Both the position numbers and the translations under genes were made by a program. Of a DNA stretch of 18,142 bases, positions 1-16,314 are shown one piece after another. Origin of the DNA: a virus. Lineage: Duplodnaviria > Heunggongvirae > Uroviricota > Caudoviricetes. The stretch lies in IMG/VR virus record IMGVR_UViG_2703718802_000010; one strand, 5' to 3'. A model generated the notes under the pieces. It worked only from the letters and a program-made list of their open reading frames with translations. It made no database searches and was not told the origin of the DNA. The first letter of the stretch is position 1. Each line of letters starts with the position of its first letter.

Positions 1-405
1 ATGGATCAGGTCGTTGTTTTTCAAAAGATGTTTGAGCAAGTGAGAAAAGAGCAAAACTTCTCCTGGTTTTATTCAGAATTAAAACATCACCGTATTGCAC
101 ATTACATTTATTATCTGGCTACGGATAACATCAGAATTATTACTCACGATGATACGGTTTTGTTATTAAGAGGAACCAGGAACCTGTTAAAAGTTAGTAC
201 GACCAAGAACCCTGCTAAAATAAAAGAGGCCGCATTGCTTCATATTTGCGGAAAATCTACATTTCGGGAATACTGTTCAACACTGGCAGGCGCGGGCGTT
301 TTCCGGTGGGTTACTGATGTTAATCATAACAAACGCAGTTACTACGCCATTGATAATACGCTTTTATATATTGAAGATGTAGAAAATAATAAACCATTAA
401 TCTAG
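1..405 (+). CDS. ycgX: YcgX-like DUF1398-family protein, 134 aa
   Basis: Full ORF starting at window position 1. Translation matches my recollection of E. coli YcgX in length (134 aa) and sequence; sits next to iraM as in the K-12 chromosome. Recall-based, not searched. Confidence 0.6.
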   Translation: MDQVVVFQKMFEQVRKEQNFSWFYSELKHHRIAHYIYYLATDNIRIITHDDTVLLLRGTRNLLKVSTTKNPAKIKEAALLHICGKSTFREYCSTLAGAGVFRWVTDVNHNKRSYYAIDNTLLYIEDVENNKPLI

Positions 406-610
406 CTAAAGTTGGATACTTAAGAAATGCTTCATAATTCAGTAAGGCATTAGCATAATGGAAATAAAAGTGCAGAGACTATCTCTATGGATGATTAATA
501 CTGTCTTTTTATTGTCACCCATAAATAATCACCAGACTAATACTATCAACTTGATATTTGAAATGTGATCACTTGACTTTTGATACGTTATTTTATAACG
601 GTTAACATAT

Positions 611-662
611 TTATAAAAACAACGGCCGTGCCACACGTCCGTTTCAATACTTAACGCACATG
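611..662. repeat. About 50-bp copy of the icd-terminator-like module (imperfect hairpin AACGGCCGTG..ACGTCCGTT plus flank); second copy at 1474-1524
   Basis: Direct comparison: shared blocks aaaacaacgg / cgtg / ccgtttcaata / ttaac / cacatg, roughly 80% identity to the 1474-1524 segment. On the minus strand the hairpin is followed by a T-rich run (gtttttataaat). Confidence 0.6.
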
Positions 663-1010
663 TATTTTGGTTTAGTCATCATCCGGTTATATGTATTTTA
701 GCCAGGAACAGGTTAAATCATTCCTATATAACTCAAAAATTGAAACCTTATTCTCATGTCATGCTTATATTCATTATTATCGTTATATAAAAAGGCAACC
801 ATAATGTTTAGCAAATTGGCACAAAGTAGCATAAAGGCTATGTTTTAATTACAGGATGTTCAGTCATTTGAATGTATAACATTATAGCTAAACAAATCTA
901 AAACGAAGTCAATAATTTATTGCTTTCACAAAATCTCATTTTGTTTAACATCCATTGAGATTCCTTGCTTTAAATTTTATTTTATATAAGCCATCATTTT
1001 AATTAATTTA

Positions 1011-1027
1011 TTTTTTTGAGGGGGGGG
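1011..1027. repeat. Homopolymer pair T7-GA-G8 (tttttttgagggggggg) about 80 bp upstream of iraM
   Basis: Read directly from sequence; a G run of 8 is unusual in an AT-rich intergenic region. Confidence 0.9.
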
Positions 1028-1104
1028 TAATATACTCATATGCAAAATCAAGAAATAAACATCCTAATGAACCATATTAAATACCGTGGGATAAGACATA
1101 ACAA

Positions 1105-1428
1105 ATGAAGTGGATAGTAATTGACACGGTAATTCAACCTACATGTGGTATATCTTTTTCAGCCATATGGGGTAATATGAAAATGATCATCTGGTATCAA
1201 TCTACTATATTTCTCCCTCCTGGCAGTATATTTACACCGGTTAAGTCTGGTATTATCCTTAAGGATAAAGAATATCCTATTACTATTTATCACATCGCAC
1301 CATTCAACAAGGATTTATGGAGTTTACTCAAAAGCAGTCAAGAGTGTCCTCCAGGAGAAAGCAAAATAACAAATAAATGTTTACATAATAGTTGCATTAT
1401 AAAAATATGCCCATATGGGCTCAAGTAA
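1105..1428 (+). CDS. iraM: Anti-adaptor protein IraM (RssB inhibitor, stabilises RpoS), 107 aa
   Basis: 107-aa ORF beginning [24 protein letters not shown], matching my recollection of IraM (YcgW) in length and sequence, in its expected position between ycgX and the icd fragment. Confidence 0.7.
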
Positions 1429-1470
1429 TGGGCTTCATATAAATATGCTCGATATGCTATTAATAATATC

Positions 1471-1507
1471 CACATAAATAAAACAACGGGCGTGTTATAC
1501 GCCCGTT
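1471..1507 (-). terminator. Rho-independent terminator of the icd 3' fragment
   Basis: Perfect 8-bp stem AACGGGCG / CGCCCGTT with 7-nt loop (1485-1507); on the minus strand it is followed by TTGTTTTATTT, immediately downstream of the icd-fragment stop at 1531-1533. Confidence 0.7.
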
Positions 1508-1530
1508 TCAATATTTAACACATGGAGAGA

Positions 1531-1695
1531 TTACATGTTTTCGATGATCGCTTCACCAAACTCTGAACATTTCAGCAGCTTAGCGCCTTCCATCAGACGT
1601 TCGAAGTCATAAGTTACGGTCTTGGCATTGATTGCGCCTTCCATACCTTTAACAATCAGGTCAGCCGCTTCAGTCCAACCCATATGGCGCAGCAG
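1531..1695 (-). pseudogene. icdC: icdC: displaced 3' fragment of isocitrate dehydrogenase, about 52 codons plus stop
   Basis: Minus-strand translation from about 1689 down to the stop at 1531-1533 gives [52 protein letters not shown], the Icd C-terminus. Upstream codons (LEFMVFYILL) are not Icd and there is no start codon, so this is an att-generated fragment rather than a gene. Confidence 0.85.
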
Positions 1696-1700
1696 TATAT
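1685..1700. other. Approximate prophage/host junction (att-derived) where icd homology ends
   Basis: Icd-like translation breaks at about 1690-1697. Exact core sequence cannot be defined without the other prophage end. Confidence 0.45.
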
Positions 1701-1958
1701 AAAAACCATGAATTCAAGTCATTGATATTTAACGATAAAAATTATTTTATTGTCTTTTTATTAGCCAAAATAAACTTTATTCAACCGTTTGATTTCATTG
1801 ACGTTCGTTTTTATTTTGGGGAAAGGTTTTCTCTACCATTTATATCCAAATTACAAGTCTACATTTTATTAACATCTCAATACATGTGAGGCCTTGCAGA
1901 CCTTTGTGAGACCTTATGTGTCTCTGTTTTGTCCCAACTTATGTTAAGAGGCACATAA

Positions 1959-2039
1959 TTAAAAATAAGATAACGATGCCGCCAAGCAGTGCAAAACCTT
2001 GTTTACTCCACGACTGTCTGCCCCATTATCTGCATACAT
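1959..2039 (-). CDS. Candidate small ORF, 26 aa (MYADNGADSRGVNKVLHCLAASLSYF), with a strong Shine-Dalgarno
   Basis: GGAGGA (2050-2045) sits 5 nt upstream of the ATG at 2039-2037; stop at 1961-1959. Not in the ORF track because of its length; no homology recognised. Confidence 0.25.
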   Translation of the reverse strand: MYADNGADSRGVNKVLHCLAASLSYF

Positions 2040-2395
2040 AATTATCCTCCATAACTGAGATAAATGTCGGTTATGAGCGAACAACAGACGTTTAGTTTAT
2101 GATGGCTGTGTCTATACATTAAACATAACATCCATTACCGGCACCGCTTATTAATTGCTATCTGATATTGTCACTAAAAAAATAGGCATTCCCCGATATA
2201 ATAATCACAAAGAAGCTTTTGGTGCTGGCAATCGGTATACCTCATAGTGGACTGCGACTTTCCGGGCACGACAAGGATATATCAATGTATGAGCAGGAAA
2301 ATTAGACCGTGGTGCGTCATATGATGACTAAGCACGGATAACAGCTACTTAATTGAAACTATTGATTATATTACAGCCAGTGCCTTATAGGATGG

Positions 2396-3517
2396 TTAGT
2401 CATCAACCGCGACTCCTGCACAATCATGGGCTATTGCCAGCAATTGTTTTTTAATTGCTTTAGCATCTACCGTCATATCTACTGTAGCAAAATGGATCTT
2501 ATGTCCCTGAGTGACAACATACTCATTAAGCATATAGCCAACAGCTGGATGAAGTAGAAGACCAGCGGCATTGAGCGAAAGCGGATCCGTCTTGTTCTCC
2601 TGTGTTCTAAGGTAGGTATATAGCTGATAAATATAGCCATTACGTAGTGATTGCTCCCGATGCCAACCCTTTGTCAGAATCGAATTAAATTTGGTATCGA
2701 TAATAATACGCCGCTGGGCAGTCTTGTGTTCCAGAATAATGTCTGACTTCATTGTCGGGAAAATCTCTGCACTACCTGCACTTTGATCGCTCAACGCCCA
2801 TTTCAGCTCTTTCCCTGCAGAGACCTGCCAAGTTGTTTTGGCAAGGTGTACACGATATAAGCCAGCGATACCTTTTTCAAATAGTCTTCTCATCCAGTAA
2901 AGGTTATTTGAGGGCGCAGGTAAAAGATATTGGCCTTGATCTTCGGTCGGCATCAGCAGTTCAAAAGCTAATCGTGCGGCATCGACCATCGGTTTATCTG
3001 CGGCATCATGGCGTCCAAAACGCCACACTGAGGGTAATTCGCGGGGGGCAGGATATCCTCCATTTATCCCCTCACGGCGAAGTGATATTGCCATAAAATG
3101 GCAATCTGCCGCCAAAGACGGTTTCACTATGATTGAGGCCAGACGTTCTAACGCACAGCGAACATAGCGATTTCGGGGGGTGTTGAGGGTTATGTCTTGA
3201 AAATGGCAGGCAACCTGTCCCCGTTCCAGCAGTTGATGACTGGCAGTATACAGTATGTCAATGCGCCCTCTCACCCGGTTCAGGGCCGCATGACAAGTTT
3301 GGTATCCCATATTTAAATTGCGACGTCGGCGCAGCGTAATCTCATGAAGGAGGATTGTCGCCACCAGGTCGGGGATTTCTGCTGGGTTATCTTCTACTGC
3401 GATCTGATTGCGCCCTAACTGGCGAAACAGATCTGAAGCGTACAGCATCAGCATCCAGATATTTCGCATGGGAATACGTGATGCTGTATGTTGCTCACTC
3501 CCGGTTATTGTCGTCAT
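2396..3517 (-). CDS. McrC-family nuclease subunit (PD-(D/E)xK-type) of a McrBC-like restriction system, 373 aa
   Basis: N-terminal IPMRNIWMLMLYASD resembles McrC IPVRNIYYMLTYAWG; C-terminal IIIDTKFNS and YIYQLYTYL resemble the McrC catalytic-core motifs. The ATG overlaps the upstream gene's stop in an ATGA 4-bp overlap (3514-3517). Confidence 0.8.
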   Translation of the reverse strand: MTTITGSEQHTASRIPMRNIWMLMLYASDLFRQLGRNQIAVEDNPAEIPDLVATILLHEITLRRRRNLNMGYQTCHAALNRVRGRIDILYTASHQLLERGQVACHFQDITLNTPRNRYVRCALERLASIIVKPSLAADCHFMAISLRREGINGGYPAPRELPSVWRFGRHDAADKPMVDAARLAFELLMPTEDQGQYLLPAPSNNLYWMRRLFEKGIAGLYRVHLAKTTWQVSAGKELKWALSDQSAGSAEIFPTMKSDIILEHKTAQRRIIIDTKFNSILTKGWHREQSLRNGYIYQLYTYLRTQENKTDPLSLNAAGLLLHPAVGYMLNEYVVTQGHKIHFATVDMTVDAKAIKKQLLAIAHDCAGVAVDD

Positions 3518-5496
3518 TTTGCTAATAACACTTTTCTGGCTTCATCGACTTTATTTGGAGCATCGAACCAATATTCGGCGAGCAAAGGGCAGATCTCTGT
3601 ATCAACGACTTGTTCATACCAAGCCTGGGCATCGTTGATTTTTTGGCCGATAGCTGGGGTGACATAGCTGTGACCGATACAAAACTGTGGTCCTAAGGTA
3701 ACATCTTTTGCCAGCATATCGTTTAATACCGTCAGTCGAGATTTGATGAATGCTAACATGTCAAAATCAATTGCGTAATTATAATTTACCCAGTTTCTCC
3801 ACGCGTCATTAAAAGCTGGCTTTAGATCGATAAACGCGAAACGACGGCGCAGCGCTAGGTCAAGTAGTGCGAGTGAGCGGTCTGCAATATTCATCGTACC
3901 GATGATATATAGATTCTCAGGAATGTATATTTTTTCATCAGCATTTTTAGGATAGGAAAGAGATAATGCCTCAGTCGGCGTGCGTTTATCTGCTTCCATC
4001 AACGTGAGTGTTTCACCGAAGATTTGCGCCGGATTGCCACGATTAATCTCTTCAATTATCACCACATATTTCGAGGTAGGATTATTGACTGCAGTTTTGA
4101 TTGCATTTACAAAAGGTCCATCAATTAGCGTCAATTGCCCTTCTTTACCTGGACGCCAGCCTCGAATAAAGTCTTCGTAAGAGAGGTTCGGGTGAAATTG
4201 CACCGCGCTAATACGCTCAGGTGCTTTTTCTCCCATCAAGCAGTACGCCAGACGTCGCGCTAACCAAGTTTTTCCAGTTCCGGGTGGTCCTTGTAATATC
4301 AGGTTTTTCTTGTCGATCAGGCGCTGAAGTGTGAGTTGGATCTTAGCCTCTTCCAAGAAACAGCCATCCTGCACCAGATGACTGATGTCATAAGGAACGT
4401 GGGTGAGTTTTGGCAACAGCGCACTCTCTTCGACAGTTTCCTCAGTTATCGTCTGGGATTCGTTTTTCTCAAAATTCAGGTATTCATAATTTCCGGACTC
4501 GAGGGACTTTAACTCATCATCATTGCATAGTTTCTGTAGATAAAAGTAGATTGAGCTTGTAACAGTTTTGCTCTCAGGATGCTCTACCTTGAATACGTCC
4601 AAGTAGTTTTCTTCCAACTCCGAAGCAGTGAAATAAGGGCCATTTTTTTTCAGGCATAACGCCTTAATTTTATTCAGTAAAGAGGCTTTCCACGTTCTAT
4701 TTGCCACCTCATCTTTAGACTGGCTAAGATCTGTATTCCACGCTGATAAGGAAAGTTCTGGGAAAGAATGAACCGGATAGTTTGGTTGGGTAAAGACCTC
4801 GTTCAGCGCCCGCATAAGACTCAGGTAACTTTGTCCACTACAGCGACCTTTTGCCCCGTTTTTAATGATCTTAATGTTTAACACTGTCTGAATGTAATAC
4901 TGCGACTGGCTATCTAAAGTGGGGTAGAACCAAGGACGGGTCCAGTACAACCCCATGGTGAGATTCCAACCGACATTCATTACTGTAGAAGCGATGTCAT
5001 ATGCGGCAGTGAAGTCTGCAGAGTTAGTATTCTGGTTATCCGCAAAGATCATTGCCTGTGAGAACATTTCCCACAAGCATTCAATGTCATTAGGGTCGCG
5101 TGACTTTTCATAACCAAAGAACCAAGATTTTTGGTTATTCAACAGAGGGATTCCGGCAAAGGAGTCAGGAATCGGTTCGTTCACGCCCAACAAATTCGCT
5201 AGCTTGGCAGCAATAATTTTGCGATTGCTGTCGGTCAAGTTACGATTGAACAAGCCCATAGTAGTAAACGGACAAATGTCTTTTAAGGGAAAGATCTCTC
5301 CCATAATAGATTTGTCCTGCAGATGGGACATTCCTTCCACACCCGAGGCAATTAGATGAATACCTTTGACTAATTCATCTCTACGATTTCGCCAAGTCAG
5401 TAACGCGTTGGCAAAAGCCTCATAAAAACTAGCCCAAGCAAACTTGCCATCATGTTCTGCTGTATCCACGGGAACTCCATTATACTTGTTGAGCAA
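3514..5496 (-). CDS. McrB-family AAA+ GTPase with a long non-canonical N-terminal region, 651-660 aa
   Basis: Walker A LILQGPPGTGKTW (residues about 401-411), Walker B VVIIEEINRGN, then GTMNIADRS and ALRRRFAF, all McrB-type motifs. The roughly 375 residues before the AAA+ domain are not recognisable as the canonical McrB DNA-binding domain. The track start at 5496 is a TTG with no SD; a GTG at 5469-5467 preceded by GGAG (5478-5475, 5-nt spacer) is the more likely start. Confidence 0.8.
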   Translation of the reverse strand: MLNKYNGVPVDTAEHDGKFAWASFYEAFANALLTWRNRRDELVKGIHLIASGVEGMSHLQDKSIMGEIFPLKDICPFTTMGLFNRNLTDSNRKIIAAKLANLLGVNEPIPDSFAGIPLLNNQKSWFFGYEKSRDPNDIECLWEMFSQAMIFADNQNTNSADFTAAYDIASTVMNVGWNLTMGLYWTRPWFYPTLDSQSQYYIQTVLNIKIIKNGAKGRCSGQSYLSLMRALNEVFTQPNYPVHSFPELSLSAWNTDLSQSKDEVANRTWKASLLNKIKALCLKKNGPYFTASELEENYLDVFKVEHPESKTVTSSIYFYLQKLCNDDELKSLESGNYEYLNFEKNESQTITEETVEESALLPKLTHVPYDISHLVQDGCFLEEAKIQLTLQRLIDKKNLILQGPPGTGKTWLARRLAYCLMGEKAPERISAVQFHPNLSYEDFIRGWRPGKEGQLTLIDGPFVNAIKTAVNNPTSKYVVIIEEINRGNPAQIFGETLTLMEADKRTPTEALSLSYPKNADEKIYIPENLYIIGTMNIADRSLALLDLALRRRFAFIDLKPAFNDAWRNWVNYNYAIDFDMLAFIKSRLTVLNDMLAKDVTLGPQFCIGHSYVTPAIGQKINDAQAWYEQVVDTEICPLLAEYWFDAPNKVDEARKVLLAK

Positions 5497-5600
5497 TGAT
5501 AATTTATCTGTGTGAGTTTTAACATATTACTATCAGTTATAGAAAAATTTAACTATCCGATACAGAGAGCGGAATGCTGAATTTGACCTGACTTGCTTCC

Positions 5601-5634
5601 AACCAATTAAAATCAACTTATTTATCAATTGGTT
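5601..5634. promoter_or_regulatory. Perfect 8-bp inverted repeat AACCAATT-N18-AATTGGTT upstream of the McrB-like gene
   Basis: Read directly; lies about 110-140 bp upstream of the McrB-like start in the 330-bp tfa/McrB intergenic region. Function (operator or hairpin) unknown. Confidence 0.3.
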
Positions 5635-5829
5635 ATTTTGGCACATGGCGGTCATCAAGGCAATATCGCGTTGTCATAAGGTGTCGAGGCTCGGAGGTTC
5701 AAATCCTCTCATACAAAAAATAAATAAAATTAATGACGGTTGGAAATTATTCAATACACTCTCGAAAGTACATCAGCCAACCGCAGCACGTTATTGCATA
5801 TAACGTTTCTGCGGCATATCACAAAACTA

Positions 5830-6414
5830 TTATTCCATAACAGGGATTGCAGGCCACTCAATATCAGGTGCAGTTGATGTATCAACACGATTCAGCAACA
5901 CCCGATACTTCTTCCAGGCTTCAAGCAACGAGGTTTCTTCCTCCGTTGCGATTTCCAGATCTGCAGCATCCTGAAGCGGGGCAATATGCTCACTGGCTAC
6001 CTGCATCAGGCTGTTTTTTGTTTCTTCCGCCTCCCGGATCCGGAACAGTTTTTCTGCTTCCGTATCCTTCACCCAGGCTGTGCCGTTCCACTTCTGAAAC
6101 TCCCCTTCCGGGGATAACCAGGTGATATTTTCCGGTAGAGGTCCGAGTTCAGAAATAAATAACGAGTCGCCGGAAGCCACGTCATAGACGGTTTTTCCCC
6201 GATGATCTTCAACGAGATGCCACGATGCCTCATCACTGTTGAAAACAGCCACGAAGCCTACCGGAATATCTGGCGGTGCAATATAGGTACTGTTTGCTGG
6301 CAGACCTGTATGAGGCGGAATATATGCGTCACCTTCACCAATAAATTCATTAGTTCCGGCCAGCAGATTATAAATTTTTATGGTCCGTGGTTGTTCACTC
6401 ATTCTGAATGCCAT
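5830..6414 (-). CDS. tfa: Tail fibre assembly protein Tfa, 194 aa
   Basis: Near-identical over its full length to my recollection of phage lambda Tfa ([24 protein letters not shown] ... [10 protein letters not shown]). Confidence 0.85.
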
Positions 6415-9266
6415 TATGCAAGCCTCACAATGTAGTTAAATGCGATGTTTTTGACGGTGTTTTCCGCGTTACCAGCAGCGTTAACGGTGATGGTGTGTCC
6501 ATGTGAGCCAATCGCAACGGAGTGCGTATGAGCACCAATACCGACAGTATGTGCATGTGCGCCTGCGCTTGCAGCAGTGCCGGACAGCGAGTGGGTATGA
6601 GCACCATCTGATGATGTCTTCCCTGCATTACGAGTCTGGCCACTACCGCTTGTTGTGCTCATAATCCCCGCGCTTAGATTTGAAATCGCGGTATAACCAT
6701 TAGGGAAAATGCTCGTGTTCGTGCCACCAAATGCACCGGAACTCTTGTGTTGGTGCGCACCGGCACTATTTGCGGTCCCGCTAATACTATGGGTATGCGC
6801 CCCGGTGTTATTCGTGGATTTGGTTCCGTAATCAAACGACGATGTGGTTTTCGTCCCCAAATCCGTACTGGATGCGCTGGCGCTGTGGGTGTGCGATTTA
6901 ATGCCGTCCTGTTCCTGAGACAATACGGCCCGACCACTGGCAGGTTTGCCCTTAATCGTCCAGCCACGCATATCAGGGATCACGCCTGACGGATAAGCGG
7001 CTGCAAGTTTCGGGTAAGCAGATTTGTCAAAAGTCTGCCCCTGCATCAGGGCATAACCAGACGGAACGGTATCTGATGGCCACGGGATTGGTGCGCCGAC
7101 TGGGTAGCTTTCTGGTGGAAGATTTTTCGAGGTATAAACTTCTGCCCAGCCTTCCTCAAAACCATAACCGTCTCTTGAAGAACGGTAGAACAGACCACCA
7201 TTTCTGTAATGCGCCTTCATCTGCAGGGTCCGGCAACTTCCGACTCCGGTATAGAAGTTAACCAGAATATAGCTGTCGCCAGAGCGGGTGACATTGTAAG
7301 CGCCTGATTCGGCATTCCAGGGAACGCCACCATCCGCATCGGCATATGTATCCGTTGCCCTTCTGGCAAAAGCAGCCACATGCGCGGCGGTTAAAGTAAT
7401 ATCTTTGGAACCATCAAATGGAACACCGGATATTTTTCTTGCAGTCTGGAGTTTTGTAGCAGTTGCAGCATTACCAGTGGTGTTCTGATTACCCGTAGTG
7501 TTTACACCTGGAAGGTTAATATTTGCAGAACCGTCGAAAACAACTCCACCGATAGATCTTGCCGTCTGCAATTTCGTGGCTGTACTTGCATTACCATTCA
7601 ATGAACCAGTTAATCCACCTGTAACAGACAACGGACCTGAAACTGTTCCTCCGGTTGTTGGCAGTGCTCCAATATCTGATGGTGTAGGTTTCTGATGTGA
7701 GCTATACATCGTATAAACAACACCATAGGTAACGCTGGAAGGCTTACTCGCTGAATATGTTGGCGAGGTATAAACAGAAACTGACGCATTTGCAGTACAA
7801 TCCCAATGGATATTTACACTCGTCGCATAATTGCCAATCTCAACGTAAATATCATATGTATCGCCGGATGTGTTGATCCAGGCGAAATTCGTTAATCCGA
7901 CGGCTGTACGCTTCCACAAAGCCCCGGTAATTCCTTTGGGGTTTCCATTGCCTGCTCGTAGAACCAGTTCTGAAATGCCTGCCTGATGTGGGGAACCGAC
8001 GTTGTAACCAGCGCCACCAATCAATGCGATGTAAACGATGGAACTCGCTTGTGGCATGGTAACCGTAGCCAGTTTGAACCACCCAGCCCCGCCAGAGAAA
8101 GACATCGTTACTGAATTTAAAGTACCAATATCTTTCGGCGTTAATGTTATATCCGCAGTCAGTGCTTTTCCGTTAACTTTTCGGTTAGATGGCACCCTGC
8201 TATTCGCATTGTCATTGGCTGCTTTAACTGCTTTTGGCGTTGCGGCCAGCGATTCACTGGTGCTATCAACAGCACTGCTAAGTTTCACAACACCTTTAGT
8301 TGTAAGGCTTGCGTCTTCCATCGCAACTGCACCGGCAATCTCTTCAGCACGATCAGCAGCAGCTTCCGCACGGGTCGCAGCGGATTCAGCAGTAGTTTTG
8401 CTCTGAGATGCCGCCGTCGCACTGCCAGCTGCCTCTGTCGCCTTCGTGGATGCTGTCGTGGCGCTGCCTTTCGCTGCTGATGCCTGTCTGCTCGCCTCAT
8501 CTTTTGAAGCAGACGCAGATGATGCCGATGACGCCGCCGAACTGGCGGACGATGCAGCTGCCATTTTTGAGGATTCTGCACTGGTTTCCGAGGCTTTCGC
8601 GTTCGTTTCGGATGTCTTCGCTGCGGATGCAGACCTCGCTGCTGCGCTGGCCTGTTCAGCGGCTTCGCCAGCCTTCGTTGTGGCTGTTGAAGCAGACGAT
8701 GCGGCGCTTTCTGCCGATTTTCCGGCGGCGGTGGCACTGGCTGAGGCCTGCCCGGCACTTGTTGACGCGGCACTGGCAGACGACGCAGCCGCTGTTTTTG
8801 AGCCTGCCGCAGCCGAGGCGCTCTGTCCCGCTGCCGTTTCAGAAGACCTGGCGTTTGTCTCAGACGTCTTTGCCGCCTTCGCGGAATTGCCTGCCGCCGT
8901 TGCCGAGGAAGCGGCACTACTGGCGCTTGATGATGCGTTCGTTTCTGATGATTTCGCTGCCTCTTTTGAGGCCGCCGCATCCCGGGCTGAGGTGGCTGCT
9001 TCTGACGCCTTCGTGGTCGCGGCGGATGCAGAAGTGGCTGCTGATTGTTGTGACGCTGCCGCATTCGTTTCTGACGTTTTCGCCGCACCGGCACTGGTAG
9101 CTGCCGCGCTTTTTGAGGACTCTGCAGCAGCAGCACTTTTTGCTGCTTCACGGGCCTTTGTCGATGCCGTTCCTGCGCTGGAAGACGCTGACTGAGCCGA
9201 CGACGCGGCCTGCCCGGCTGACGTGCTGGCGGCACGTGCTGAGCCTGCAGCATCGGTTATTACCAC
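6414..9266 (-). CDS. stf: Side tail fibre protein Stf, 5'-truncated, 950 codons
   Basis: N-terminal Ala/Ser-rich AAKTSETNA-type repeats and C-terminal HxH-rich tip ending [11 protein letters not shown] match lambda Stf. Homology begins at a position equivalent to about lambda Stf residue 135; an in-frame stop lies just upstream (9285-9287) and the GTG at 9266 has no SD, so expression is doubtful. Confidence 0.7.
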
Positions 9267-11707: not shown

Positions 11708-13234
11708 TCAAAAATAAACCTCACCATCAACCATATATTTGAGAGTACTTATCGCCTGCTGGGCGGATATTGTTTTCATTAAAGGATAGTGTTTAAAAAC
11801 AATGCCATTCATAAAATAGATATCACAGGTTTTATTATCTGTATTGATTATGATTTTTTCGAATGTTTTATAGGCAAGTGTACGACATAGCTCTCGCCCA
11901 TTTTTACTGGTTAAGTCAATAGCATGAAAATCACCAAGTGAACTCACCGCTTTACTCTTCAAAGTTTTTAATGATACAGAAGCCCTTCGTAATTCCTTAT
12001 CTAATACTCTGATTTTTTCTGCTATAGCGGTAACTTCAGGCGCAACAGATAATGCAGCAATTAAATTATTAATTTTCATCTGGAGCTCAATAATTTTCAA
12101 CTCTAAAGTTTCATTAGCATCTTTCTTGTTTTCAACTGGTTGGATTTTACTACAATTAAAAAGCAACTCATTAATGATATTATAATCAACCAAATCTCTC
12201 TTTATTGATGGCCTGTCACATCGATGCAGTCTTCTCATCGGACAAACATAATAGCCATGCAAACTTCCAGATACCGCATGAACAATCATGGTATTACCAC
12301 AAGCCTCGCACTTCATAACTGTTCGAAGTAGATTTATCAACATAGGATTTTTGCTACTATTGCTAATACCAAAAGGTGCCAACCGAATTTCCTGCACAGC
12401 GTAAAACAAATCATCTGATATGACTCTGGGATAATAGCCAGCGATTTCACTTATTCCTTTACCTCTTGCACGATATGAAGGTACGCATATACCTATCAGA
12501 GCTTTATTCGCTAATAATTTTTCAATTACAGAAGGTCCCCATGCACTTTCTTTTCCTGAGAAATTCTTTACAGCATGATCATTTAAATACTTGGCTATTG
12601 CATTCAATGAGCGCCTTTCCATCCTGAGTTTAAAAATTAGCTCAATAGTTTTCACCCTGTCGGGGTCTGGAACAAAAGCCGTTCTTTTGTCATCCAATGA
12701 GAGCCATCTCGGACAAGACGCCGTCATAATCGTGCCTGACTCCAGTGCATCCTGCCGTTTTTTCTTCCATGATAATTTAACCCGACTTGACTTTATCTCG
12801 CTTTCTTCATTTGCCCTTTGTGCTATAAGTATGGCTTTTATTAATGAATATGGCTCATTCAATGAGTCAATATTATAGACTGTATTATCGCAAAGAGTTA
12901 TAACATCAATACCGTGATTCAAAATCAATTTCAGACGCTCAATCGCCTCACCGACTTTTTCTCTTGAAAGTCTGTCCAGACTTTCAACTAACAATGTAGT
13001 CCCTGGCAATATATAACCATGTTCTATAGCATCTAAAAATTCCGAAAAAGCTCCTGATTGTGCATGCTTTCCATTGAATGCGCTTAACCCCAAATCTTCA
13101 TACGTTACGGTATCAAGGTAATAATCACTATTTACCTTTAGCCATTCAGTAATAAGCCTTCTCTGGCGGTTTAATGAATCACCAGACATCTGACTTGGTG
13201 ATGAAAATCGCATATATGCTATGGCTTTTTTCAT
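11708..13234 (-). CDS. ybcK: Large serine recombinase (resolvase catalytic domain, recombinase domain, zinc ribbon), YbcK-like, 508 aa
   Basis: N-terminal AIAYMRFSSPSQ ... SLNRQ is a serine-recombinase catalytic motif; C-terminal Cys cluster (CEACGNT ... CPMRRLHRC). Length and adjacency to emrE match my recollection of DLP12 YbcK. Confidence 0.7.
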   Translation of the reverse strand: MKKAIAYMRFSSPSQMSGDSLNRQRRLITEWLKVNSDYYLDTVTYEDLGLSAFNGKHAQSGAFSEFLDAIEHGYILPGTTLLVESLDRLSREKVGEAIERLKLILNHGIDVITLCDNTVYNIDSLNEPYSLIKAILIAQRANEESEIKSSRVKLSWKKKRQDALESGTIMTASCPRWLSLDDKRTAFVPDPDRVKTIELIFKLRMERRSLNAIAKYLNDHAVKNFSGKESAWGPSVIEKLLANKALIGICVPSYRARGKGISEIAGYYPRVISDDLFYAVQEIRLAPFGISNSSKNPMLINLLRTVMKCEACGNTMIVHAVSGSLHGYYVCPMRRLHRCDRPSIKRDLVDYNIINELLFNCSKIQPVENKKDANETLELKIIELQMKINNLIAALSVAPEVTAIAEKIRVLDKELRRASVSLKTLKSKAVSSLGDFHAIDLTSKNGRELCRTLAYKTFEKIIINTDNKTCDIYFMNGIVFKHYPLMKTISAQQAISTLKYMVDGEVYF

Positions 13235-13489
13235 GGTGACACCTGCTAAAGTATGCTTTTATAAACCTTAGTGGTGAGATATGATTTTTGTTTAATTTTT
13301 ATTTAAAAAGACAATTAAGGTCACATTATCTTGAATATACAACAATAATCGTATTGCAATTTTCTTACACCATAATCTTGAAAGCACAAAAGAATGAATA
13401 AAAACTAAAGACATTAACAAAAAGCATAAAACGAGGCCCATATAAATATACGAGCCTCCATATTTTAGTCGTTTAAAAACAAATTATTT

Positions 13490-13822
13490 TTAATGTGGTG
13501 TGCTTCGTGACAATAAATTAATAACCAACACACCGGCACAAATCAACATCATGCCTATAATGGCTGGCAGGTCCAACCGTTGGCCGAAAAATCCCCATGA
13601 TAGTAAGCTAATCAGGACAATACCGACTCCTGACCAGATAGCATAAGCAATCCCTGTAGGAATATAAGCCAGCGTCTGAGCTAATAACCAGAATGATGCA
13701 CAATAACAAATAATTGTACCAACAGATGGCCATAACCGTGTAAAACCTTCTGAAAACTTCATTAAGGTTGTACCAATGACCTCTGCAAGTATTGCACCAC
13801 CAAGATAAATATAAGGATTCAT
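13490..13822 (-). CDS. emrE: SMR-family multidrug efflux protein EmrE, 110 aa
   Basis: MNPYIYLGGAILAEVIGTTLMKFSEGFTRLWPSVGTIICYCASFWLLAQTL ... LSRSTPH matches EmrE. The longer 128-aa track ORF has an upstream in-frame extension that I reject in favour of the MNPYIYLGG start. Confidence 0.9.
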   Translation of the reverse strand: MNPYIYLGGAILAEVIGTTLMKFSEGFTRLWPSVGTIICYCASFWLLAQTLAYIPTGIAYAIWSGVGIVLISLLSWGFFGQRLDLPAIIGMMLICAGVLVINLLSRSTPH

Positions 13823-13889
13823 AGCATATTCTTTCCTGTTCAAACTGGAGAGAATTGTACTACAGTTTGAACTCAACTCACCTGTTTCA

Positions 13890-14192
13890 TCATTGTGTAC
13901 CCATTGATGTTCTTTTATATACCCTCAATACCCGTTTCATCGCGGCACTCTGGCGACACTCCTTAAAAATCAAATTCGTGCTCACCTTTCCTTCCCATTC
14001 TTCTCTGGTAGCGAACCGATAATACACCGTTCGCCAGACCTTACCATCAACGACTAGGATTCCTGCCCGCGCCATTTTAGCCGCAGCCTGATTTATGCTG
14101 GTTACCGTTGCGCCTGTTACCGCGGCAACGTCCTGCGCACAGAATTTCTTATGAGTCCCCAGGTAATGAATAATTGACTCTTTGCCCGTCAT
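13890..14192 (-). CDS. ren: Ren protein (Rex-exclusion resistance), lambda-like
   Basis: MTGKESIIHYLGTH ... VTSINQAAAKMARAG ... VWRTVYYRFATREE matches lambda Ren as I recall it; start overlaps the P stop. Confidence 0.8.
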   Translation of the reverse strand: MTGKESIIHYLGTHKKFCAQDVAAVTGATVTSINQAAAKMARAGILVVDGKVWRTVYYRFATREEWEGKVSTNLIFKECRQSAAMKRVLRVYKRTSMGTQ

Positions 14193-15249: not shown

Positions 15250-16314
15250 ATGAGTCAGGTTGGTAATCATTCATTCGAATTTCCGGCATCGCAAGGTGTA
15301 CAGGGTGGTACTGTTACACTCTTCCTTACCATACCAGGAAGATCGCTGGCTCGTTTCCTCGCTTCAGATAATTACGGCCATACACTGGAACGCTCTCAGC
15401 GAGAAATTAATCCAAATCGAGTACGAAAATTTTTAAATTATCTCACTAACGCAGACTCAAGAAATGAGCCTTTTATCATTCCCCCTCTCGTAGGTAACTG
15501 TGATTCGAATATAGAATTTGTACCGTTTGGCAACACAAATGTTGGTATAGCCAGAATTCCCCTCGACGCCGAAATAAAACTTTTTGATGGTCAACATCGT
15601 GCAGCTGGCATTGAGATATTTTGCCGAAGTTCCCCATCAACGCTCATGGTTCCCATGATGCTTACAATGAATCTGCCGCTAAAAACCCGGCAGCAGTTCT
15701 TTTCGGACATAAATAACAACGTTTCTAAGCCATCAGCGACCATCAATATGGCGTATAACGGCCGGGATGATATTGCTCAGGGAATGATATCCTTCCTGAC
15801 CCAACATACTGTATTTGCCGATATAACCGATTTTGAACACAACGTAGTGCCATTAAAAAGTAATATGTGGGTGAGTTTCAAGGCACTCACTGATGCAACG
15901 TCAAAGTTCGCTAGGAACGGCAATCAACAACTTGAAATGGGATATATAGAATCTGTCTGGGAGGCATGGATTACACTAACTCAGATTGACTCAATCCGAC
16001 ATGGTGTACACCACGCTACGTACAAGCGCGATTATATTCAGTTCCATGGAGTAATGATTAACGCTTTCGGTTTTGCGGTTCAACAGATGATGGTTAATCA
16101 TTCCATCGCAGAAATAACTTCTATGATCGAAAAACTATGTGCAACTACCAGCTCTGCAGAAAGAGAGGATTTTTTTCTGATGGATAACTGGGCGGGGATC
16201 TGCACGAAAGCCAGCCAGGAAAAACTATCTGTTATTGCCAATGTGGCAGCGCAGAAAGCAGCAGCAAACAGACTGATACAAGCTTTTACCAAAGGAAGTC
16301 TGGAAACAACTTAA
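15250..16314 (+). CDS. DGQHR-domain protein (DndB-like, ParB/sulfiredoxin-fold superfamily), 354 aa
   Basis: Contains the exact motif FDGQHR (KLFDGQHRAAGIEIF) at the position typical of the DGQHR/DndB family, and the length fits. Strong SD (CAGGAGGA) 6 nt upstream of the ATG. Confidence 0.65.
   Translation: MSQVGNHSFEFPASQGVQGGTVTLFLTIPGRSLARFLASDNYGHTLERSQREINPNRVRKFLNYLTNADSRNEPFIIPPLVGNCDSNIEFVPFGNTNVGIARIPLDAEIKLFDGQHRAAGIEIFCRSSPSTLMVPMMLTMNLPLKTRQQFFSDINNNVSKPSATINMAYNGRDDIAQGMISFLTQHTVFADITDFEHNVVPLKSNMWVSFKALTDATSKFARNGNQQLEMGYIESVWEAWITLTQIDSIRHGVHHATYKRDYIQFHGVMINAFGFAVQQMMVNHSIAEITSMIEKLCATTSSAEREDFFLMDNWAGICTKASQEKLSVIANVAAQKAAANRLIQAFTKGSLETT

What the first reader, a model, noticed from the sequence alone, without database searches (positions are those of the whole stretch)
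4372..5496. Unrecognised, aromatic-rich N-terminal region (about 375 aa) on the McrB-like GTPase
Canonical McrB has a roughly 160-aa N-terminal DNA-binding domain; here about 375 residues precede the Walker A motif and I cannot match them to it. The region is rich in Trp/Tyr/Phe (KSWFFGYEKS, NVGWNLTMGLYWTRPWFYP), which is compatible with a modified-base reader but is not proof of one. Specificity of McrBC-family systems is set by this region, so it may recognise a different DNA modification. The start codon is also ambiguous (TTG at 5496 versus GTG at 5469 with a GGAG SD).
Basis: inference. Interest (0 to 1): 0.65.

Follow-up and report, generated by a model that had tools for sequence, protein, structure and literature searches.

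The report
Two-domain uncharacterised N-terminus on McrB
The long N-terminal region of this prophage-borne E. coli McrB-like GTPase consists of a widespread domain of unknown function (DUF8425), a DpnI-type winged helix and a flexible linker, an arrangement already noted in the literature but never characterised, so what the enzyme recognises is still unknown.

Summary
About 366 residues, counted from the better-supported GTG start at 5469, precede the McrB GTPase and show no similarity to the EcoKMcrB N-domain. The GTPase itself is 47% identical to EcoKMcrB, and a coupled McrC gene follows.

The region has three parts:
- DUF8425 (aa 1-245, Pfam PF28527).
- A DpnI_C-like winged helix (aa ~257-334).
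- A low-confidence acidic linker (aa ~335-366).

DUF8425 is a large family: 2334 clusters at 50% identity. It sits N-terminal to McrB-type AAA_5 domains in 58 of 61 long representatives, sometimes in tandem and once fused to HNH.

Its AlphaFold model is confident (pLDDT 93.5) but has no significant PDB match. The best sub-threshold hits are HhH-GPD DNA glycosylases, and no sequence-level test supports that link.

The winged helix keeps only one of DpnI's five methyl-pocket residues. All E. coli genomes examined carry dam, so Gm6ATC reading is unlikely.

The NTD-wH-NTPase plus McrC architecture was listed by Helbrecht et al. 2024 with an NTD 'of unknown function' and was not studied further after one failed purification attempt.

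Verdict: a real, probably functional type IV McrBC variant with unknown specificity. It is a new member of a catalogued but untested class, of moderate interest.

The parts
5467..5469 (-). Preferred start codon GTG of the McrB-like gene, giving a 651-aa product. GGAG lies at 5475-5478, five bases upstream.
   Evidence: Sequence read. Homologue N-termini. PGAP CDS WP_000379040.1. Exact 651-aa protein on record.
5494..5496 (-). Alternative in-frame TTG, the first start after the upstream stop. It has no Shine-Dalgarno-like sequence and is the less likely start.
4735..5469 (-). DUF8425 domain (Pfam PF28527), aa 1-245. Mostly helical with one small beta hairpin. Strongly conserved motifs are DICPFT...FNR (aa 64-76), W133 and WNLTxGLYWxRP...LD (aa 168-186).
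   Evidence: Precomputed PF28527 on homologues, named. AF2 model with pLDDT 93.5 and pTM 0.91. Conservation over 267 domain instances. Family size of 2334 clusters.
4912..5022 (-). Candidate helix-hairpin-helix plus Pro-rich loop plus Asp segment inside DUF8425 (aa 150-186). It resembles the HhH-GPD signature and is a hypothesis only.
   Evidence: Predicted helices 150-160 and 169-177, with D186 at the start of helix 187-196. D186 is 91% D and 6% E. The hairpin glycines are only 55% and 47% conserved. Weak structural hits to Ogg/OGG1/MutY. No sequence support.
4468..4701 (-). DpnI_C-like winged-helix domain, aa ~257-334.
4534..4557 (-). Recognition helix of the winged helix, SSIYFYLQ (aa 305-312). 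It aligns to DpnI E228-K229-I-R231-Q232-Q-L-Q235, and only the last Gln is kept.
   Evidence: Alignments. DpnI pocket residues from PMC3424567.
4372..4467 (-). Acidic linker modelled with low confidence, aa ~335-366, between the winged helix and the GTPase.
   Evidence: pLDDT below 50 for aa 327-366. pI 4.7. Homologues without the wH have non-conserved acidic linkers here.
3514..4371 (-). McrB-type AAA+ GTPase domain (aa 367-651) and stop codon. Motifs found: Walker A GPPGTGKT at aa 394, EEINR at aa 473, NIAD (NxxD) at aa 527 and RRRF at aa 541.
   Evidence: Pfam AAA_5 at 8e-27. NCBIfam McrB at 262 bits over the GTPase part. 47% identity to EcoKMcrB. Motif positions.
2396..3517 (-). McrC partner gene (373 aa from the ATG at 3517). 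Its start overlaps the McrB-like stop as ATGA. It carries a D-x-K nuclease motif, IIDTK, at aa 272-276.
   Evidence: NCBIfam McrC equivalog at 356 bits, above the cutoff of 338. Pfam McrBC. Overlap read. 24% identity to EcoKMcrC over 352 aa. Motif.

Best explanation
The gene pair at 2396-5469 (minus strand) is an intact McrBC-type (type IV-like) restriction module. It is carried as cargo at the attR end of a degraded e14-like lambdoid prophage integrated at icd.

The N-terminal ~366 residues of the McrB-like subunit are its target-selection part. They consist of a DUF8425 domain, a DpnI_C-type winged helix and a flexible acidic linker that tethers both to the GTPase ring.

Inferred by analogy with EcoKMcrBC:
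- These N-terminal modules bind foreign DNA that carries some feature absent from the host's own Dam- and Dcm-methylated DNA.
- The GTPase hexamer with McrC then translocates and cleaves.

DUF8425 is the default N-terminal module of a large McrB clade and is probably the primary nucleic-acid-binding unit. The winged helix is an accessory module present in about a quarter of relatives. In Enterobacterales its recognition helix has been remodelled, so it should not read Gm6ATC.

Shown here: domain composition, family membership, operon structure, motif integrity and distribution.
Inferred: DNA binding, dependence on modification and the division of labour between the two modules.
For: System identity:
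- GTPase 47% identical to EcoKMcrB, with Walker A, Walker B-like EEINR, NxxD and the Arg cluster present.
- McrC passes the NCBIfam equivalog cutoff and is translationally coupled through an ATGA overlap.
- The module is identical in 289-305 of 5426 complete E. coli genomes.

Domain composition:
- PF28527/DUF8425 on homologues.
- Low-confidence linker.

DUF8425 behaves as a targeting module:
- 2334 clusters in the family.
- 58 of 61 long representatives carry AAA_5.
- In 80 species-representative genomes, 71 have the GTPase in the same ORF and 70 have an McrC homologue in the locus.
- Tandem copies occur, and one fusion to an HNH_2 nuclease.
- It co-occurs with other DNA-reader-type wH domains: Mrr_N, HARE-HTH and HTH_24.

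Not a Dam reader:
- dam is present in 5426 of 5426 E. coli genomes.
- DpnI pocket residues E228, K229, R231, Q232, Q235 (PMC3424567) correspond to S, S, Y, F, Q here.
- All seven Enterobacterales relatives have [YS][FY]Y where most environmental relatives have xRQ.

Literature: the NTD-wH-NTPase plus McrC class is recognised as a putative type IV system (PMC11037411).
Against: - No experiment on this protein or any DUF8425 protein was found. The one reported purification attempt on an NTD-wH-NTPase/McrC complex failed.
- Both N-terminal modules are acidic (pI 5.6 and 5.4), and the recognition helix has lost DpnI's Lys and Arg. This is not what one expects of a strong DNA binder.
- DUF8425 is unusually conserved across phyla, at 50-60% identity. 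That is atypical for a specificity domain in an arms race and could point to an enzymatic, regulatory or structural role.
- No significant structural or sequence match defines what DUF8425 binds.
- The module was not found in 50,697 phage records, so its link to active phages is indirect.
Confidence: 0.65

Rival explanations
1. DUF8425 is a very divergent HhH-GPD-type DNA-glycosylase-like domain. It flips a modified base into an aromatic pocket. It then acts either as a non-catalytic reader or as a monofunctional glycosylase that uses the conserved Asp186.
For: Structure:
- In Foldseek against PDB, about 45 of the top 50 hits are Ogg2, OGG1 or MutY.

Motif:
- The segment G165-V-G-W-N-L-T-x-G-L-Y-W-x-R-P-x(3)-P-T-L-D186 parallels EndoIII GVGRKTANVVLNTAFGWPTIAVD (sequence).
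- The G-to-D spacing is similar, and the segment falls on a predicted helix-hairpin-helix with Asp at the next helix N-terminus.
- D186 is 91% Asp and 6% Glu. The position matching the EndoIII catalytic Lys is 81% Asn and 11% Lys.
Against: - hhalign against E. coli Nth gives probability below 1%.
- No HhH-GPD hit in Pfam at E<=10 for 36 members.
- No glycosylase in the PDB sequence search, with either the whole-domain or the motif-only profile.
- The hairpin glycines are only 55% and 47% conserved, and the query itself has Asn at the first.
- Tandem copies suit a reader better than an enzyme.
- The structural alignments themselves could not be inspected, so it is not known whether the motif superposes on the real HhH.
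Confidence: 0.3
2. The winged helix works as in DpnI and HhiV4I. It reads fully methylated Gm6ATC (or S6mATS), making this an adenine-methylation-dependent McrBC.
For: The wH is a true homologue of the DpnI C-terminal domain. Several wH-nuclease fusions were shown to be Dam-dependent (PMC11037411).
Against: - Every complete E. coli genome examined has dam, so the enzyme would attack its own chromosome.
- Four of the five DpnI methyl-pocket residues are replaced.
- The same paper states that only about 10% of wH fusions keep the 6mA/GATC motif and that the others have unknown targets.
Confidence: 0.05
3. DUF8425 is not the substrate reader. It is a conserved regulatory, sensor or assembly domain of this McrB clade, and substrate choice comes from appended modules (wH, Mrr_N, HARE-HTH, the ~130-160-aa N-terminal extension) or from McrC.
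For: - Conservation across phyla is very high.
- Its pI is acidic.
- Reader-type domains are added to a constant DUF8425 core in varying combinations.
Against: - Most family members carry DUF8425 as the only domain besides the GTPase. 59 of 80 loci lack the wH, and many have only a 25-90-aa gap before Walker A.
- Those proteins would then have no targeting domain at all.
- A DUF8425-HNH fusion looks like a classic reader-nuclease enzyme.
Confidence: 0.15

Closest known systems
EcoKMcrBC (E. coli K-12 type IV restriction enzyme)
   Same: - McrB-type AAA+ GTPase, 47% identical over 282 aa, with Walker A, NxxD and the Arg motifs.
- McrC partner with a D-x-K motif.
- mcrB-mcrC gene order with overlapping stop and start.
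- N-terminal targeting region tethered by a linker.
   Different: - The N-terminal region is 366 aa rather than about 160-177 aa and shows no similarity to the DUF3578/ADAM 5mC-flipping domain.
- McrC is only 24% identical.
- The module lies in a prophage at icd, not in the immigration control region.
'NTD-wH-NTPase' plus McrC-like systems listed by Helbrecht et al. 2024 (PMC11037411)
   Same: [quoted passage not shown] This locus fits that description exactly.
   Different: - The paper gives no characterisation. One purification attempt failed.
- It does not identify the NTD as a family.
- I could not check whether the E. coli protein is in their data set.
- Added here: the NTD is DUF8425, with its distribution and conservation, and the enterobacterial remodelling of the recognition helix.
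R.DpnI C-terminal winged helix (PDB 4esj / 4kyw)
   Same: Homologous fold and sequence family, Pfam DpnI_C. The invariant Gln equivalent to Q235 and the LQxL core are kept.
   Different: - E228, K229, R231 and Q232, which build the two methyl pockets and read GATC, are S, S, Y and F here.
- The domain is acidic.
- It is fused to a GTPase rather than to a PD-(D/E)XK nuclease.
HhH-GPD DNA glycosylases (Ogg2, OGG1, MutY, EndoIII)
   Same: - They are the best, though sub-threshold, structural neighbours of DUF8425 by two methods.
- DUF8425 has a helix-hairpin-helix-like segment followed about 20 residues later by a conserved Asp.
   Different: - No significant structural or profile score.
- The hairpin is poorly conserved.
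- Other strongly conserved motifs (DICPFT, FNR, W133) have no counterpart that I can name in glycosylases.
EcoKMcrA in prophage e14
   Same: A type IV restriction function carried as cargo in the same slot of an icd-integrated prophage, next to attR/icd' and iraM.
   Different: McrA is a single-chain NEco-HNH enzyme and is unrelated in sequence.

Membership tests
McrBC-type (type IV) restriction system | McrB-family AAA+ GTPase with Walker A, Walker B and the NxxD signature | tested here: met
   AAA_5 at 8e-27. NCBIfam McrB at 262 bits over the GTPase part. 47% identity to EcoKMcrB. GPPGTGKT, EEINR and NIAD all present.
McrBC-type (type IV) restriction system | Adjacent McrC subunit with DUF2357-type N-domain and PD-(D/E)xK nuclease | tested here: met
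   NCBIfam McrC equivalog at 356 bits against a cutoff of 338. Pfam McrBC. IIDTK motif. ATGA coupling. An McrC homologue is present in 70 of 80 related loci.
McrBC-type (type IV) restriction system | GTP-dependent cleavage of modified DNA only | not testable with these tools
   Needs biochemistry or phage and plasmid restriction assays.
EcoKMcrB N-terminal domain (DUF3578 / ADAM, 5mC reader) | Sequence match of the N-terminal region to DUF3578/MrcB_N or to EcoKMcrB aa 1-161 | tested here: not met
   No Pfam hit at E<=10. BLASTP against EcoKMcrB aligns only the GTPase part. The NCBIfam McrB model covers only aa 378-654 and scores far below its cutoff.
PUA-like readers (EVE, YTH, SRA, ASCH) and Mrr_N | Pfam-level match or PUA-like beta-barrel fold | tested here: not met
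DUF8425 (Pfam PF28527) | Significant sequence similarity to family members over the whole domain | tested here: met
   Homologues carrying precomputed PF28527 match aa 2-244 at 47-73% identity, with E down to 1e-147. Family name. The model itself is not in the local Pfam copy, so the query was not scored against it directly.
DpnI_C winged helix (Pfam PF17726) | Match to the DpnI_C profile or to the DpnI wH sequence and structure | tested here: met
DpnI-type Gm6ATC reader function | Conservation of the methyl-pocket and GATC-contact residues E228, K229, R231, Q232, Q235 | tested here: not met
   Only the Q235 equivalent is kept. The query has S, S, Y, F. The host species always carries dam.
HhH-GPD DNA glycosylase superfamily | Significant fold match to HhH-GPD structures | tested here: inconclusive
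HhH-GPD DNA glycosylase superfamily | HhH hairpin (GhG) followed by a Gly/Pro-rich loop and an invariant Asp | tested here: inconclusive
   The pattern is present in the family consensus and D186 is 97% acidic. The hairpin glycines are only 55% and 47% conserved, and the query has NVG.
HhH-GPD DNA glycosylase superfamily | Profile-level sequence similarity | tested here: not met
   hhalign against E. coli Nth gives probability below 1%. No Pfam HhH-GPD hit at E<=10. PDB profile searches are empty or unrelated. A proper profile-profile search against a diverse HhH-GPD alignment could not be run.

The most novel reading that the evidence does not exclude
DUF8425 is a new class of modified-base sensor descended from HhH-GPD DNA glycosylases. 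It flips, and possibly excises, a phage-specific modified base. In that case a large McrB clade, including this E. coli prophage system, would couple glycosylase-like lesion recognition to a GTP-driven nuclease. The remodelled aromatic winged helix would add a second, non-Dam readout.
Probability: 0.15. Interest if true: 0.8.

Novelty: new member of a known kind. Interest (0 to 1): 0.5.

Why it matters
McrBC specificity is set by the N-terminal domain. As far as I know, only a few such domains have been characterised: DUF3578/ADAM, YTH, a PUA-like domain and a B3-like domain.

DUF8425 appears to be the N-terminal module of a very large McrB clade (2334 clusters at 50% identity). No function, ligand or solved structure is known for it.

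This member sits in about 5.6% of complete E. coli genomes, in the same prophage slot where K-12 carries mcrA. The question of what it restricts can therefore be put directly in the best genetic system available.

Knowing its target would:
- explain a barrier to phage infection and to DNA transfer in natural E. coli;
- possibly yield a new modification-dependent reagent enzyme;
- show whether a DpnI-type winged helix can be retuned away from Gm6ATC in Dam-positive hosts.

Tried and rejected
- Direct searches with the 375-aa region found nothing: Pfam (E<=10), NCBIfam, PHROGs and PDB sequences. The domain identities came only through homologues.
- hhalign of the DUF8425 alignment against single E. 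coli Nth gave probability below 1%, both with the narrow alignment (Neff 3.0) and the wider one (Neff 5.4).
- I spent one large protein search on Nth to build a diverse HhH-GPD profile. All 120 listed hits were at least 86% identical, so it was useless for that purpose.
- PDB sequence searches with the whole-domain profile and with a motif-only profile of aa 146-200 returned no glycosylase. The few weak hits (Lmo1076, a phage tail protein, Pol delta) look like chance.
- A Pfam scan of 36 mostly DUF8425-only members at E<=10 gave no HhH-GPD hit. It did reveal an HNH_2 fusion.
- The afdb50 fold library was not available, so no comparison with AlphaFold DB annotations was possible.
- The search for related loci with the diverse alignment A6 failed for lack of a conserved stretch. 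It worked with A4.
- tblastn against 50,697 phage records gave no match.
- Literature searches for the protein accession, for McrB with HhH-GPD, and for e14 with McrBC found nothing on this system.
- Rejected: Gm6ATC reading by the wH, because the pocket residues are lost and the hosts are Dam-positive.
- Rejected: pseudogene or remnant status, because the ORF and motifs are intact and identical in hundreds of genomes.
Full report
**What is at the coordinates**

The minus strand carries an ORF at 3514-5496, 660 codons from a TTG. An ORF at 2396-3517 follows immediately. The first product has a Pfam AAA_5 domain at residues 398-553 of the TTG form (8e-27). The NCBIfam McrB model matches only residues 378-654 (262 bits, far below its whole-protein cutoff of 637).

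The second product passes the NCBIfam McrC equivalog cutoff (356 against 338 bits). BLASTP against E. coli K-12 proteins gives 47% identity over 282 residues between the GTPase parts (aa 371-650 against EcoKMcrB 178-457). It finds no similarity in the N-terminal parts. McrC is 24% identical to EcoKMcrC over 352 residues.

Walker A (GPPGTGKT, aa 394), EEINR (473), the NxxD signature (NIAD, 527) and RRRF (541) are all present. McrC carries IIDTK. The McrB-like stop and the McrC start overlap as ATGA.

About 366-375 residues precede a bona fide McrB GTPase and do not match the canonical N-domain.

**Start codon**

TTG at 5496 and GTG at 5469 both exist. GGAG lies at 5478-5475, five bases before the GTG. 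Three things favour the GTG:
- The closest homologues without N-terminal extensions begin MDAxE.D.RF.W, aligned to VDTAEHDGKFAW.
- PGAP annotates the 651-aa form.
- That exact 651-aa sequence is on record on at least 1000 contigs, named only 'AAA family ATPase'.

All residue numbers below count from the GTG.

**Genomic setting**

The whole window is 100% identical to E. coli NCTC9100. It lies in a degraded lambdoid prophage integrated at icd. The order is ycgX, iraM, an icd' remnant, then mcrC, the mcrB-like gene, a tail-fibre assembly gene and tail-fibre genes.

In K-12 the same slot of prophage e14, next to attR/icdC and iraM, holds pinE-mcrA. Two unrelated type IV restriction functions thus occupy the same cargo position.

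- The 3.3-kb module is present at 99% identity or more in 305 of 5426 complete E. coli genomes, and 289 hold at least 80% of it.
- Its G+C content is about 43-44%.
- In seven other Enterobacterales species the same two-gene cassette sits among different neighbours.
- It was not found in 50,697 phage records.

**Anatomy of the N-terminal region**

A search of the 366-aa region against 5.8 billion proteins gave 277 hits. Most cover only the first two thirds, aa 2-244, at 47-73% identity. They carry a precomputed Pfam accession, PF28527, which is absent from the local Pfam copy. A later look-up names it DUF8425.

About ten hits also cover aa ~250-335 and carry PF17726. Scanning homologues locally showed that this is DpnI_C, the 'Dam-replacing HTH domain':
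- 36 bits for P0002, which is 68% identical to the query over its full length;
- 47-49 bits for P0005 and P0057, against a cutoff of 23.

A profile of nine such segments including the query hits the DpnI winged helix in the PDB at E 4.5e-13.

The region therefore has three parts:
- DUF8425, aa 1-245;
- a DpnI_C-like winged helix, aa ~257-334;
- an acidic linker modelled with low confidence, aa ~335-366.

**What DUF8425 is**

A profile search of 1.84 billion cluster representatives found 2334 proteins at E<=1e-3 and 750 at E<=1e-30.

- Of 61 long representatives, 58 carry AAA_5. Minor additions are Mrr_N, HARE-HTH and TPR.
- Thirteen of 146 new representatives carry two or three full tandem copies.
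- One protein, P0222, is DUF8425 fused to an HNH_2 nuclease.
- Many have an unassigned extra domain of about 130-160 aa in front.
- In 80 species-representative genomes, the GTPase is in the same ORF in 71, an McrC homologue is in the locus in 70, and the winged helix is present in 21.

This is the behaviour of a targeting module of a large McrB clade.

Conservation over 267 domain instances is striking:

| Position | Conservation |
|---|---|
| P67, W133 | 100% |
| D64 | 97% |
| F68 | 99% |
| N75 | 98% |
| R83 | 94% |
| W176 | 97% |
| P179 | 99% |
| D186 | 91% Asp plus 6% Glu |

**Fold of DUF8425**

The domain modelled alone is confident (pLDDT 93.5, pTM 0.91) and mostly helical. It has no significant PDB neighbour:
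- Foldseek gives nothing at E<=0.001. The best hit has E 0.36 and TM 0.30, yet about 45 of the top 50 are Ogg2, OGG1 or MutY.

The family consensus GVGWNLTxGLYWxRPWxFPTLD resembles the EndoIII signature GVGRKTANVVLNTAFGWPTIAVD. It lies on a predicted helix, hairpin, helix, Pro-rich loop and Asp at a helix N-terminus.

Every sequence-level test I could run against this idea was negative:
- hhalign against Nth;
- Pfam at E<=10 on 36 members;
- PDB profile searches with the whole domain and with the motif alone.

The hairpin glycines are only about half conserved. I therefore hold the HhH-GPD-like reading as a hypothesis at about 0.3, not a finding. I could not inspect the structural alignments, and the AlphaFold DB library was unavailable.

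**The winged helix and Dam**

In DpnI the two m6A methyl groups sit in pockets built from E228, K229, R231 and Q232, with Q235 nearby (PMC3424567). The HMMER alignment reproduces these residue identities once the three extra N-terminal residues of the PDB chain are subtracted.

The query has S, S, Y, F and Q at those positions, in SSIYFYLQ at aa 305-312. Only Q235's equivalent survives.

Across 21 winged-helix-bearing relatives, the recognition helix differs by group:

| Group | Recognition helix |
|---|---|
| Most environmental relatives | ..STIARQLQILRD |
| All seven Enterobacterales | [YS][FY]Y in place of xRQ |
| Psychrobacter | further variants of its own |

dam is present in 5426 of 5426 complete E. 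coli genomes. A Gm6ATC-dependent McrBC would therefore be suicidal.

Helbrecht et al. state that only about 10% of wH fusion proteins keep the 6mA/GATC motif and that the targets of the rest are unknown (PMC11037411). The winged helix here is acidic (pI 5.4) and DUF8425 has pI 5.6, which leaves their DNA affinity an open question.

**Relation to what is known**

Helbrecht et al. [quoted passage not shown] They report one failed purification attempt and no further study. Pfam has since registered the NTD as a DUF.

The Koonin-group McrBC census gives DUF3578, EVE, Mrr_N, DUF4357 and COG4127 as McrB aliases or fused domains. My term search of that paper found no mention of a winged helix or DpnI. 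I found no paper on this E. coli protein or on a link between McrB and HhH-GPD.

The locus is thus a member of a catalogued but functionally untested class. This analysis adds:
- the split of the region into domains;
- the size and architecture range of DUF8425;
- the confident model without a significant neighbour;
- the clade-specific remodelling of the recognition helix in Dam-positive hosts;
- the shared cargo slot with mcrA.

**Verdict**

The most likely function is target selection for a modification-dependent McrBC-type nuclease whose target is neither Dam nor Dcm methylation (confidence about 0.65). The chemical identity of the target is unknown.

Interest is moderate. The kind of system is ordinary and the architecture has been noted before. 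But the main domain is a very large family with no known function or fold relative, and it sits in E. coli, where the question can be tested directly.

Noticed in passing
window 3514-3517 and 3466-3517 (minus strand): The McrC start ATG at 3517 overlaps the McrB-like stop as ATGA. PGAP annotates a start 16 codons downstream (357 aa). However, the EcoKMcrC alignment begins at residue 15 (IPMRNIW) and the NCBIfam profile at residue 12, so the 373-aa form looks right. Public records contain both forms.
   Followed up: partly
window 1-5830, compared with L006 (K-12 e14): The McrB-like/McrC module occupies the prophage cargo slot next to the icd' remnant and iraM. In K-12 e14 that slot holds pinE-mcrA. 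Two unrelated type IV restriction functions share one prophage position.
   Followed up: partly
window 15250-16314 (+): A DGQHR-domain protein (354 aa) is encoded in the prophage early region, between the exonuclease/DUF1317 genes and a TraR/DksA-family gene. To my knowledge this family is DndB-like, so it may be another DNA-modification-related or defence function. Not examined.
   Followed up: no
window 8401-9000, within ORF 6414-9266 (minus strand): This segment has G+C 0.62 and AT skew -0.39 inside a 950-codon tail-fibre reading frame. PGAP ends the tail protein at about 8320 and calls an opposite-strand hypothetical protein at about 8457-9194. The gene structure here is unclear.
   Followed up: no
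window 11708-14192 (minus strand): The degraded prophage carries a large serine recombinase (ybcK-like, 508 aa), an emrE copy and the exclusion gene ren. Several neighbouring phage genes are annotated as truncated pseudogenes.
   Followed up: no
L001 8895-11510; hit H1: Insertion-sequence polymorphism around the module. An IS66-family element lies between the icd' remnant and mcrC in strain FORC 064, and an IS3-family element interrupts the module in strain ML35.
   Followed up: no
P0121, P0123, P0125 and others; P0222: In other organisms DUF8425 occurs in two or three tandem copies before the GTPase. In one protein it is fused to an HNH_2 nuclease without any GTPase.
   Followed up: partly
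hits H37-H39 (Bacteroidales plasmids): A stretch about 29% identical to DUF8425 aa 7-195 lies under genes annotated 'FRG domain-containing protein'. This suggests further effector partners for the domain.
   Followed up: no
P0005, P0007 and many others, residues 1-160: Many DUF8425-McrB proteins carry an extra N-terminal domain of about 130-160 aa (motifs WFVGA and GD.IAIK) with no Pfam match. A similar module follows DUF8425 in P0253. Its identity was not resolved.
   Followed up: no
L070, L074, L077, L084, L086 (Psychrobacter): The Psychrobacter relatives have further variants of the winged-helix recognition helix, such as KGTVKFLLKEL. This points to clade-specific retuning of this module.
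   Followed up: partly
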